From Heptranchias perlo (taxonomy: Eukaryota): a stretch of 64,000 nt of DNA. Numbering within the stretch: the first letter of the stretch is position 1; each line of letters starts with the position of its first letter. The notes below the pieces were generated by a model, which ran no database searches, was not told the DNA's origin, and worked only from the letters and a program-made list of their open reading frames with translations. This document shows positions 36,655 through 39,874 of the stretch, in pieces. The position numbers were made by a program, and so were the translations under genes. The DNA is taken from positions 62,001-126,000 of the forward strand of contig NW_027139215.1 of the NCBI RefSeq assembly GCF_035084215.1. Direction: 5' to 3'.

Positions 36655-36977
36655 CTGGAGTGCATCCTGGATATCCACAGGTCCAGGATGCTCGCGGTCC
36701 GTGGGGGCGGGCGCTCGGCCTGTCTGCCTCTCTTCCGCGGAATGCTCCGCGCCCGGGTGGCCCTGGAGATGGAGCACGCGGTGTCTGCCGGTACGCTTGA
36801 GGCTTTCCGCGACCGGTGGGCACCGCAGGTGCTGGAGTGCATCCTGGACGAGGAAAATAAAATTTTAATTTGATGCCTGGTTTCGTTTTATTTGGTTTTT
36901 AGTACTTAAGCACACCCTACACCCCCCCCCCCTTCTTATAAAAGGGGGGCCAGAAAAAAAAAAAAGACAAAAAAAAA
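36655..36977 (+). mobile_element. 5'-truncated Tx1 whose poly(A) abuts the zp3 5' region
   Basis: ORF2 end at 36873, hairpin with TATAAAAG 36937-36944, poly(A) to 36977. Confidence 0.93.
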
Positions 36978-37021
36978 GGTGCTGGTTGGTGGGTAAAGTG
37001 ATAGTTGAGTTGTTTGGTATC

Positions 37022-39874
37022 ATGGGGGATTTTGTAGTGAGAGGTTTGTTCCCGGTGCTGGTGTTAGTTGGAGCGGTTTGTTGCTCTGATATTTGGCAAC
37101 AGTTTAGAGGCCAGAGATTTCCATGGAGAAGAGTAAAACCCACCCCTGTGCCCCAGAGAGTCCCTCTCCCTGTCCCTCCCTTTGGTTCCCATTTCAGTGT
37201 GTCTGAGGGGAGAAGTCTGTCTCCACTGCAGACTGTGATGGTGCAGTGTGGAGAGCAGAACCTGCTGGTGAGGGTAGACATGGATTTATTTAGAACCAGG
37301 CACCTGATTAAAGCTGCTGACCTGACCCTGGGGACAGCAGGTTGTCGGCCAACTGGGATCTACTCTCAGAACCACACTGTCCTCTTTGACTATGGGCTCC
37401 ATGAATGTGGCAGCAGATTGCAGGTAATGTGATTCCTCAACTCTTGTTCCAATTTCACTGTGTAGATTACTGCCCACTCTGAACTCATTAACATCGGGGG
37501 AAACTCCAGCCACTGAGGAGATCCCTGAATGAAATCTGTGTATAAATTTTTGCCCACTGTGAAGTATCACCCTGTGTGAAACTACTTCTTTGTGTTGACA
37601 TGTCAATCTTCGCTTTATATTTAAAAAGAACTTCGACTTGTCACTGAGGGACTGCATCTTTCTTAAATGGGTCATTGCTGCTCTCTAACTCTGAGATTCA
37701 ATTCTATTGACCTTGAACCTTCACCTGCATTTCTCCAAACCACTCTGTTCTTTTGTGCCTCAATTGATTTATCTTTTCCGTTCCTTCCTGTGGATATTCA
37801 GGCCTGTTGCCTCAACTTGTGGTCAATGAATGTTCAGTGTGGAAGTTCCTGTTGAGACTTCCCTTGAAAGATGAAACAAGTGGAATAATAATTGGGATAC
37901 AATGAATTAAAGGGGAACTCCACTTTTGGTTGTTACACCTGCCAATACCATTGATTCCACGGACACAGATGAGATTTAAAAGTGATGTTGTGTTTTGTGC
38001 TCCATATCAGGGGTAACTTGAGCCCCTTAAGGTGAAAGCTCTAATCTATATGGGAAAGAATGCTCATCAAATCTGGCAGTGCCAATCATTTCAGGGGTTT
38101 CTGACTGCAGGCCTGAAGTCCCCTGTAATAGAAGGTGGACTGAGCAGAGTAACAGAGGCTGCTCCAGGCAACTTCTCCCAATGGTGGAGCGACTTCAATC
38201 ATGTGTCATTGAGGAGCAGCTGAAACCCCTTAAACTGCTGCTTAACAGGGTAGGAAAATGACCAGAAATAGCTTTTGTTCAATGAGACCAGCTCTTCATT
38301 TCTTAACCTGATGTCTTTCAGATGGCTGGCGATTTCCTGGTCGACACCACCCACCTGAACCACACCCCAAATGCTCGTGGATCTGTCATTGTGAGAACTA
38401 ATGGAGCAGTCATTCCCATTGAGTGCCACTATTTTAGGTAAGAATCTTTACTCTATTGCAAATAAGGTCTACAGCAGGTGCAGTTCTCTGAAGTTGTCCT
38501 GAAATTACTGTAGTGTCCTTTCAGGAAGGGCAATGTGAGCAGTGACCCTATCAAGCCCACCTGGATCCCATTCCGCTCTACCAAGTCTGGAGAAGGGCTT
38601 CTGTCATTCTCACTGCGTCTTATGAACGGTATGTGATGGGTGGATGGGGAGTGCTTTTCTGTCGTCTCCCACTGGGAGTTACACCCACTGTCTCCAACCC
38701 TTGTCCTCTTGTACTTCAGATGACTGGCTGACAGAGCGCACCTCGACTGTCTACTACCTGGGTGACCTCATTCACATTGAGGCCTCTGTTTCAATGACCA
38801 ACCACATGCCCTTGAATCTCTACATTAACAGCTGTGCAGCGACATTGAGCCCAGACAAGGATTCCACCCCAAGATACAACATCATTGACTCCCATGGGTA
38901 AGGAGCTCTCTGCTTTCTCCAGCTGGTTCTGTCTCAATCGGTTCACTTAATTCACTTTGTCCCTTTTTAAATCTTTCTTCAGTTGCCTCCTGGACAGCAA
39001 AGCTGAGGACTCCTTTTCAACCTTTGTGTTGCCAAGAGGTGAACGTGAGCTGGACGAACTCCAGTTTGATCTGGATGCGTTCCGCTTCTTTGGAGATGAC
39101 CGTTCCTTGGTAAGAGGAAGCCAAACATTGGGTTCCCCATGTTGGGAGGAGGTCACTAAATAACAACTTGTATTGAATGTGTCCCTCAGATTTTCATCAC
39201 CTGTCACCTGAAAGTTGCTGCAGTGGATCGGAGAGATTCCATGAACAAGGCTTGTACTTTCCAGAATATGTAAGTTCCCTCTCTCGTTCAGGGATGTGTT
39301 GATTGAAGGGTGATGGACAACCTGGTTGATAAACTGATTCTCTGGTTGAGCTGGACCCCATTGGAAGAATCGACCAATGACGTGTGTGCCTCTTGTCATC
39401 TGGGCAACTGCAGTGCCACAAGGGATTTCCTCGTTGATTCCAGAGGAAGGAGGGATCTTGTATCTGGACCTGGTAGGACATTGATCCTCTTGATTGTTGG
39501 AGGTCACCCTTTACCCTCTAACTGGAATGTTTGATATTGCAGAGAGTGATGCTGAGTTGAAGTGGGAGGGTGAGGCCTCACTTGGACCCTTGGTCATTCT
39601 GGATCCTCATGTGACAGACCTGGCAACTGAGCCCCTTAATGATGTTGAGCAAAGGATGCAGGAGAGGTCTCCAGGTGGTGAGTTGGCAGACTGCTAGTTT
39701 CCATTTTCCCCTCAGTATTTCCTTCACTAACCATTGGTTTCTTGTTGCTTTATAGGTGTGGCGTCTGAGGTGGTCCTGATCTTGGCCCTGACTGTGAGCG
39801 CTGTCTCTCTGATCTCTGCTTCTTGGATTGCCTTGTTCCTGAACAGGAAACACAAGCAAACCCAGTTTAACTAG
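37022..39874 (+). CDS. zp3: Zona pellucida sperm-binding protein 3-like, ~460 aa (exons 37022-37423, 38322-38437, 38525-38628, 38720-38897, 38983-39109, 39190-39269, 39351-39472, 39543-39677, 39756-39874)
   Basis: Signal peptide; ZP motifs VQCGE, LHECGS, IPIECHY, KPTWIPF, IHIEASV, FITCHLK, NKACTF; furin site RGRR; EHP-like [10 protein letters not shown] helix; AATAAA 39888; GT-AG junctions keep frame (exon 7 acceptor least certain). Confidence 0.92.

What the first reader, a model, noticed from the sequence alone, without database searches (positions are those of the whole stretch)
36922..37022. The element's 3' hairpin contains a perfect TATA box that may replace the one it displaces and recreate its own target
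Seen: every young copy ends in CCCCCC-TTCTTATAAAA-GGGGGG, an 8-bp stem that contains TATAAAAG (4808, 36937, 21810 on the minus strand, etc.). At zp3 this TATA is 85 bp upstream of the ATG, and the preceding 2.2 kb is only Tx1 DNA, with no native CCAAT-type promoter visible, yet the zp3 frame is open. Established: TATAAAAGGGGG is the adenovirus major late TATA context, and LINE 3' stem-loops serve RT recognition. Inference: a dual-use RNA hairpin and DNA TATA box could soften the damage of promoter insertion. It would also provide a fresh TATA-proximal A tract for the next insertion, explaining junctions where poly(A) abuts the next copy's 5' end with no host DNA between (4899/4900, 11889/11890).
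Basis: partly seen in the sequence, partly recalled or inferred. Interest (0 to 1): 0.75.

Follow-up and report, generated by a model that had tools for sequence, protein, structure and literature searches.

The report
Tx1 retrotransposon borrowing egg-coat gene promoters
The TATA-like hairpin is the standard tail end of a Tx1 retrotransposon and likely works as an RNA 3'-end signal; it sits exactly where the egg-coat gene zp3 lost its own TATA box but likely does not replace the promoter, while full-length copies of the same element lie directly behind intact zp3 promoters, which likely drive them in oocytes.

Summary
The hairpin is real: an 8-bp stem with TATAAAAG 85 bp before an open 459-aa zp3 frame, 8 copies in the window and 427 exact copies in the genome. 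But CCAAT box, E-box and TATA were deleted, in one rearranged cassette copied to at least 34 paralogues.

Promoter rescue is not shown and the evidence is mixed. For: 14 of 34 frames are intact and coding change is below neutral (p=0.024). Against: 4 intact copies have lost the hairpin TATA, 29 of 34 lack an E-box, and a clade-marking allele is missing from deep zp3 RNA-like contigs (weak). TATAAA lies 10-35 nt before the tail in 190 of 193 ends, which is poly(A)-signal spacing.

Target re-creation is not supported: 3 nested-pattern hits versus 3 control, and 0 of 28 dispersed targets near a TATA. The DNA after junctions 4899/4900 and 11889/11890 is host ferritin-type promoter.

The larger result: 22 of 134 zp3-leader loci are zp3 promoter fused in sense to Tx1; 4 of 18 followed downstream keep both ORFs open.

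The parts
36922..36949 (+). Tx1 3'-end hairpin (C-run, TT, loop, AA, G6); stem 36927-36934 pairs with 36942-36949
36937..36944 (+). TATAAAAG spanning loop and 3' arm; the TATAAA hexamer ends 11 nt before the A tail
36954..36977 (+). A-rich tail; the last four A match the AAAA of the native zp3 TATAAAA
36978..37021 (+). zp3 leader that follows the native TATA in uninserted paralogues (native TATA 51 bp before ATG)
37022..39874 (+). zp3-type gene, 9 exons, 459 aa, frame open, GT-AG introns
   Evidence: exon joints also seen in RNA-like contigs
36668..36951 (+). 5'-truncated Tx1 stub of about 310 bp including tail, same 5' break in the whole clade
36640..36667 (-). Inverted piece of the DNA that lies just upstream of the native promoter in paralogues such as L100, L102, L213
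   Evidence: present in 34 of 40 hairpin-at-TATA loci by motif
34790..36640 (-). 1.8-kb Tx1 3' remnant in its original flank; 98.5% identical over 4566 bp (with flank) to the 3' end of the zp3-promoter-fused element L280
36826..36831 (+). CAGGTG E-box made by one substitution in the Tx1 stub, 111 bp before the hairpin TATA; in 5 of 34 clade members
788..4747 (+). Tx1 ORF2 (APE endonuclease + RT), open, 1319 aa stop to stop
   Evidence: 50% identity over 98% to Xenopus laevis Tx1 ORF2
4900..5105 (-). Host ferritin-type promoter and part of its 5' UTR, antisense, at the head of array unit 2 (its TATA at 4935-4942 is mutated here)
   Evidence: ferritin label from the match to the window's exon 1 upstream of Pfam Ferritin exons
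4900..11889 (+). Tandem array unit 2 (ORF2 frameshifted)
11890..18911 (+). Tandem array unit 3, same ferritin-type head
18912..18934 (+). zp3 leader fragment behind the tail of unit 3 (3' transduction)
21762..22006 (-). Tx1 3' stub in the 5' UTR of the window's ferritin-type gene, just downstream of its TATA, with a short target duplication

Best explanation
The hairpin is the ordinary 3' end of a Tx1-clade LINE, its TATAAA likely works in the RNA as a weak poly(A) signal, and it stands at the zp3 TATA position because an element end is joined to the native TATAAAA, likely by one insertion and a later rearrangement that deleted the native promoter and was copied to at least 34 paralogues that are likely little transcribed. 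Shown: position, deletion of CCAAT/E-box/TATA, single clade, hexamer-to-tail spacing, read-through copies that carry hairpin, tail and zp3 leader to other chromosomes. Inferred: poly(A)-signal function, order of events, low expression. The promoter traffic that the genome does record runs the other way: full-length elements sit in sense behind intact zp3 promoters (or head to head with ferritin-type promoters) and are likely transcribed from them in oocytes.
For: Native TATA at the junction: 131 GTAYAAAAGGTGYTGG hits, control 2, versus 55 tail-leader hits, control 2; contexts. All 34 complete hairpin-type genes form one clade and 34 of 40 hairpin-type loci carry the same inverted junction. TATAAA ends 10-35 nt before the first A5 run in 190 of 193 distinct ends, the spacing given for AATAAA and its variant TATAAA (PMC7356254, one passage). 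17 of the 55 tail-leader hits lie outside the cluster contigs, several with target duplications, so RNA ran through the hairpin. 4 of 14 intact clade genes read TGTAAAA and one broken gene GATAAAA, against 3 of 69 changed native TATAs. No CCAAT in 34 of 34 and no E-box in 29 of 34 within 200 bp; FIGLA binds an E-box in Zp promoters (PMC1906760, passage). Disabling lesions per 100 intron variants: 5.6 versus 3.4 for full promoters. At 39590 (window allele in 29 of 34 clade, 3 of 69 native genes) all contig depth shows the native letter in X1 (327887 of 327887), X2 and X3 (weak). Promoter fusions: 22 of 134 loci, 18 of 18 C38 loci followed, 14 with TATAAAA, 4 with both ORFs open.
Against: Rare coding variants in the clade are below neutral when synonymous and intron sites are pooled (omega 0.65-0.74; 37 of 131 non-synonymous, p=0.024), like full-promoter genes (0.56-0.66) and unlike genes that kept TATA but lost the CCAAT region (1.09-1.15); against synonymous sites alone it is 0.88-1.03. 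Intact fraction 14 of 34 versus 27 of 44 is not significant (p=0.11). A canonical AATAAA lies about 95 nt upstream of the tail and is not where most copies end, so the hairpin may matter for another reason. No TSS or 3'-end data exist here; contigs drop minor variants and the runs may be another individual or species (best paralogue match to an X3 contig 20 of 25 sites).
Confidence: 0.55

Rival explanations
1. The hairpin TATA acts in DNA as a substitute core promoter, so the clade is still transcribed from a start in the A tail.
For: Exact position at the native TATA; TATAAAA kept in 97 of 100 listed ends across five upstream variants; 14 of 34 frames intact and clade expanded; pooled omega below 1, p=0.024; no ATG between hairpin and start, and an E-box at -111 in the window's sub-clade.
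Against: Upstream CCAAT and E-box are gone; 4 intact copies lack the TATA; TATA-to-ATG distance drifts from 74 to 222 bp; 3 of the 5 E-box copies are broken; clade allele not seen at 39590 in RNA-like contigs (weak); gene conversion from unsampled native genes could mimic selection (inference).
Confidence: 0.2
2. The stem-loop is mainly the recognition signal for the element's reverse transcriptase, and TATAAAA is conserved as loop sequence for that binding.
For: Stem-loops are common at 3' ends of stringent LINEs (PMC3747384, passages); variants lacking TTC can still form an 8-bp stem (read by eye); most 5'-truncated copies examined keep the hairpin, and a 310-bp stub was mobilised.
Against: No compensatory changes visible, since the arms are C and G runs; region z-score 0.96; tails carry long transduced pieces and bare A tracts occur at the zp3 TATA (L121, L150), which suggests relaxed priming; most loci were picked by the hairpin, so retention is biased.
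Confidence: 0.25
3. As in HeT-A, the 3' TATA of one array unit drives transcription of the next unit.
For: Head-to-tail arrays exist; some downstream units start past any host promoter (L234, L236, L281); HeT-A precedent (PMC5537684, passages).
Against: None of the 10 5'-UTR copies examined outside C38 is a solitary copy beginning with an A run at a unique site; 7 share a third host-derived head and 2 are truncated; array heads have host promoters; read-through explains the same data.
Confidence: 0.07
4. The hairpin's TATAAAA is itself the target that draws the next insertion.
For: It matches the native site TATAAAA|GG; one of three hits (L112) repeats the right arm after an A run; second events at the tail-leader junction occur (L104, L122, L123 type).
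Against: 3 hits versus 3 in the control among more than 400 hairpins, two being point mutants; 0 of 28 dispersed targets have TATAWA within 25 bp (background 4%), the only preference being a cut before A in 25 of 28; tandem junctions map to several A-rich points of the host-derived head.
Confidence: 0.03

Closest known systems
Tx1-clade non-LTR retrotransposons (Xenopus Tx1L, Keno, Kibi, Koshi, Tx1-Mar)
   Same: Two ORFs, APE endonuclease plus RT, A tail, 9-15 bp target duplications; best protein hit is X. laevis Tx1 ORF2; accumulation in a multicopy target region and tandem copies.
   Different: Listed targets are transposons, snRNA/5S genes and microsatellites (PMC4494074, passages). Here full-length heads gather at promoters of multicopy protein-coding genes, while dispersed truncated copies show only a cut-before-A preference.
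SVA subfamily driven by the MAST2 promoter; R2 co-transcription with 28S rDNA
   Same: Element transcribed from a host promoter and carrying host 5' sequence (PMC4494074, passages).
   Different: Here an autonomous LINE has at least three host-derived heads (zp3 sense, ferritin-type antisense, a third with zp3-intron-like DNA); transcription from them is inferred.
Drosophila HeT-A promoting in tandem
   Same: Head-to-tail arrays with a promoter-like element at the 3' end (PMC5537684, passages).
   Different: No sign here of copies initiated from the 3' element; arrays are interstitial and headed by host promoters.
Variant poly(A) signal TATAAA; L1 3' transduction
   Same: Hexamer 10-35 nt before the tail with U/GU-rich upstream DNA; read-through copies carry downstream host DNA. 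L1 transduction is recalled.
   Different: The hexamer is partly paired in a hairpin; cleavage not tested.

Membership tests
Tx1 clade LINE | ORF2 with APE endonuclease and RT closest to Tx1 | tested here: met
   Pfam Exo_endo_phos + RVT_1; top hit X. laevis Tx1 ORF2, 50% over 98%; no RT tree built
Tx1 clade LINE | A tail and short target duplication | tested here: met
   28 of 38 dispersed ends gave a duplication, 9-15 bp in 27
Target-specific Tx1 family | Most insertions at one sequence | tested here: not met
   0 of 28 dispersed targets near TATAWA; but about 66 of 87 5'-UTR copies lie on the cluster contigs C38, C43, C725, C1048 (counted by eye)
TATA core promoter | TATAWAWR consensus upstream of the gene | tested here: met
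   TATAAAAG at 36937-36944
TATA core promoter | Transcription start 25-35 nt downstream; TBP binding | not testable with these tools
   Only assembled contigs were available and they are cut at 36939-36981
TATA core promoter | Upstream activating elements of the zp3 promoter (E-box, CCAAT) | tested here: not met
   CCAAT 0 of 34, E-box 5 of 34 within 200 bp
TATA core promoter | Motif preserved in intact genes that depend on it | tested here: inconclusive
   10 of 14 intact genes keep it, 4 read TGTA, which may be one shared change
Variant poly(A) signal | Hexamer 10-35 nt before the 3' end | tested here: met
   190 of 193 ends; ends are not independent
Variant poly(A) signal | CPSF-dependent cleavage | not testable with these tools
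   needs 3'-end sequencing or reporter
Stringent LINE 3' stem-loop | Compensatory stem changes and RT dependence | tested here: inconclusive
   stem predicted; arms are homopolymers; RT dependence untested
HeT-A-type tandem promoter | New copies start within the upstream unit's 3' end | tested here: inconclusive
   none among 10 non-C38 5'-UTR loci, most of them segmental copies

The most novel reading that the evidence does not exclude
A promoter-swapping LINE: this Tx1 lineage lives on the promoters of multicopy oocyte genes. It lands at the zp3 TATA box, keeps the native promoter in front of itself for germline expression, and leaves its own TATA-bearing 3' end in front of the displaced gene as a working substitute, so a tandem host family tolerates and amplifies its parasite. 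The borrowing half alone is about 0.6 likely; the probability given is for both halves.
Probability: 0.15. Interest if true: 0.82.

Novelty: new variant of a known kind. Interest (0 to 1): 0.52.

Why it matters
How Tx1 elements are transcribed in the germline is little known (own knowledge). This genome shows intact elements fused behind the promoter of a roughly 190-member egg-coat gene family, with transduced zp3 leader marking their offspring on other chromosomes. The cluster is also a natural promoter-swap experiment: 44 genes with full promoter, 25 without the CCAAT region and 34 with only the hairpin TATA can be told apart by SNPs, so one ovary long-read or CAGE library would test whether a retrotransposon's 3' end can serve as a core promoter.

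Tried and rejected
RNA: no listed holder was on record as RNA; X1 and X5 contigs are spliced over zp3 and deep, but contigs cannot show starts and are cut at the tail. A second laying focused on the clade-marking exons gave no data, so allele-level expression rests on one exon site and a few intron sites. One low-depth X2 contig has clade-type intron letters (37862, 37947, 37950), so organism A likely carries the clade. A pattern meant to count ends polyadenylated before the hairpin was mis-specified and hit 17 loci that I did not examine; that test was not done. Nested insertion into the hairpin: rejected. TATA-specific endonuclease: rejected for dispersed copies. Simple inversion of one L100-type allele: rejected, because the 3' UTR of the window's stub differs from all 12 L100-type stubs aligned and the left flank belongs to an L280-type element. 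The 33-aa L072 exon-1 peptide alone gave no Pfam hit. The two non-C38 junction hits followed (C4, C15) were chance matches. Literature searches listed no report of Tx1 at zp3 or ferritin promoters; the library is open-access only and Repbase could not be searched. No earlier scan findings. Rows dropped before counts: L153 and L138b (duplicates of overlapping fetches), 30 incomplete loci and one unclassified complete gene (L129).

Full report
Observation. The motif is as described: eight copies in the window, 427 exact 25-mers in the 3.25-Gb genome and none in the reversed control. It folds as an 8-bp stem with a 7-nt loop, TATAAAAG running from loop into the 3' arm; the 121-nt region is no more stable than shuffles. 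The element is Tx1-clade: endonuclease plus RT, best hit Xenopus Tx1 ORF2 at 50% over 98%. The host is likely a cartilaginous fish (inference from the closest partial hits). The zp3 gene has nine GT-AG exons and an open 459-aa frame.

Where the native promoter was. The zp3 leader has 101 exact hits, mostly in an 8-Mb cluster on C38 and on C725 and C1048; exon 1 gave 193 candidates. Uninserted genes read CCAAT ... CAG(G/C)TG ... GTATAAAA|GGTGCTGG, with TATA 51 bp before the ATG; inserted ones read hairpin, tail|GGTGCTGG. The promoter was deleted, not pushed upstream. The 2.2 kb is a cassette: the 3' remnant of an element still in its original flank (98.5% over 4566 bp to L280), about 28 bp of inverted promoter-side DNA, and a 310-bp stub. 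I classed 134 loci: 103 complete genes in three promoter classes, 1 unclassified, 30 incomplete. All 34 complete hairpin-type genes form one clade, mean pairwise distance 2.4%. This is one event amplified, not recurrent rescue. C725 and C1048 may duplicate parts of C38, so counts may be inflated.

Does the hairpin TATA rescue expression? Intact frames: 14 of 34 hairpin-type, 27 of 44 full-promoter, 8 of 25 TATA-without-CCAAT (p=0.11 and 0.59). Disabling lesions per 100 intron variants: 5.6, 3.4 and 8.0. Four intact copies read TGTAAAA (possibly one shared change), against 3 changed TATAs in 69 native genes. TATA-to-ATG distance runs from 74 to 222 bp; none of 34 has CCAAT and 5 have an E-box within 200 bp, the window among them (the native-class counts of these boxes are partly built into my class rule). 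FIGLA binds an E-box in Zp promoters (PMC1906760, passages). RNA-like contigs show deep spliced zp3 in X1 and X5; at 39590, where 29 of 34 clade genes and 3 of 69 native genes carry the window's letter, all depth in X1, X2 and X3 has the native letter, and 99.9% in X5. This is a weak hint only: contigs drop minor variants, the runs are guessed to be RNA, and the animal may differ. No start site could be observed.

What the loop likely does. With the loop left free, 97 of the first 100 of 385 hits keep TATAAAA, while the three bases before it vary in 21 (hand count). TATAAA ends 10-35 nt before the first A run in 190 of 193 distinct ends (many loci were selected by the hairpin and are related). 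TATAAA is a recognised variant poly(A) signal with that spacing, helped by U-rich upstream elements (PMC7356254, one passage). A weak signal predicts read-through, and 17 of 55 tail-plus-zp3-leader hits lie outside the cluster contigs, several with target duplications. These copies are the direct genomic record of transcripts across this kind of junction, and they began upstream of the hairpin. RT recognition (PMC3747384, passages) remains a live and compatible rival.

Does it re-create the target? An A run joined to the hairpin's right arm occurs 3 times against 3 control hits; two are point mutants and one (L112) is a short repeat. Of 38 dispersed ends tested, 28 gave a target duplication; none has TATAWA within 25 bp, and 25 begin with A. 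The sequence after 4899/4900 continues in 7 of 30 loci into exon 1 of a ferritin-type gene on the other strand, with TATA and four inverted CCAAT boxes; tails join it at seven or more positions. So the junctions do contain host-derived DNA. What does get reused is the tail-leader junction or native TATA: second A-tailed pieces in L104-, L122- and L123-type genes and separate events in L116, L118, L121, L129, L150. Whether this reflects open chromatin or pairing of transduced leader RNA with its homologous target is unresolved.

The larger finding. 22 of the 134 loci are zp3 promoter and the first 68 bases of leader and coding DNA fused in sense to a Tx1 5' UTR (26 junction hits, control 5). 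All 18 C38 loci followed downstream continue into Tx1; 14 keep TATAAAA and four (L273, L274, L276, L281) have ORF1 of 626-720 aa and ORF2 of 1319 aa open. In L286-L288 and L107/L108 the order is promoter, leader, Tx1, hairpin, tail, leader again and zp3 exon 1: the element took the promoter and left its hairpin in front of the gene, which is truncated in these loci. Other full-length copies are headed by the ferritin-type promoter or by a third host-derived head. About 66 of 87 5'-UTR copies lie on the cluster contigs. Transcription from these promoters is inferred, not shown.

Comparison. Known Tx1 targets are transposons, snRNA/5S genes and microsatellites, and host-promoter use is known for SVA-MAST2 and R2 (PMC4494074, passages). 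HeT-A uses a 3' promoter for the next unit (PMC5537684, passages); I found no copy initiated that way among 10 loci outside C38. Searches (listings only) showed no report of Tx1 at zp3 or ferritin promoters; Repbase, subscription papers and supplements were not seen. Verdict: real motif, correct site, rescue unproven (about 0.2), target re-creation unsupported; a new variant of a known kind, of interest mainly for promoter borrowing.

Noticed in passing
G000 C38:9.1-17.8 Mb, C725, C1048: zp3-type family of up to about 190 exon-1 candidates interleaved with ferritin-type genes; 49 of 103 complete genes classed are intact.
   Followed up: partly
L271-L288; C1048 about 60022, just left of the window: zp3 promoter and leader fused in sense to full-length Tx1, four with both ORFs open; one heads the window's tandem array.
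   Followed up: yes
window 21762-22006: Tx1 stub in a ferritin-type 5' UTR just downstream of its TATA, with a short target duplication.
   Followed up: partly
L292-L294, L297-L300 (near ends of C13, C16, C23, C32, C37): A third host-derived Tx1 head containing zp3-intron-1-like DNA, in near-identical copies close to contig ends; pieces of it recur in dispersed tails.
   Followed up: partly
L036, L045, L050, L086, L237: Tails are mosaics of A runs and 10-90 bp pieces of zp3 intron or element 5' UTR, suggesting serial transduction or template jumping.
   Followed up: no
25 complete genes such as L100-L102, L175, L179, L213: Genes that keep TATA and E-box but lost the CCAAT region to an antisense Tx1 piece evolve neutrally (omega about 1.1), which suggests the CCAAT region is needed.
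   Followed up: partly
L100-L102, L142, L198, L205, L213, L218: Antisense 310-bp stubs share one 5' break but have different subfamily 3' ends, as if repeatedly overwritten.
   Followed up: no
window 55640-56230: 54-bp tandem repeat that also lies about 200-450 bp upstream of native zp3 promoters (L010), here on the minus strand with adjoining upstream DNA but no zp3 gene.
   Followed up: no
window 46650-49556: Open 968-aa endonuclease-RT frame of a different LINE.
   Followed up: no
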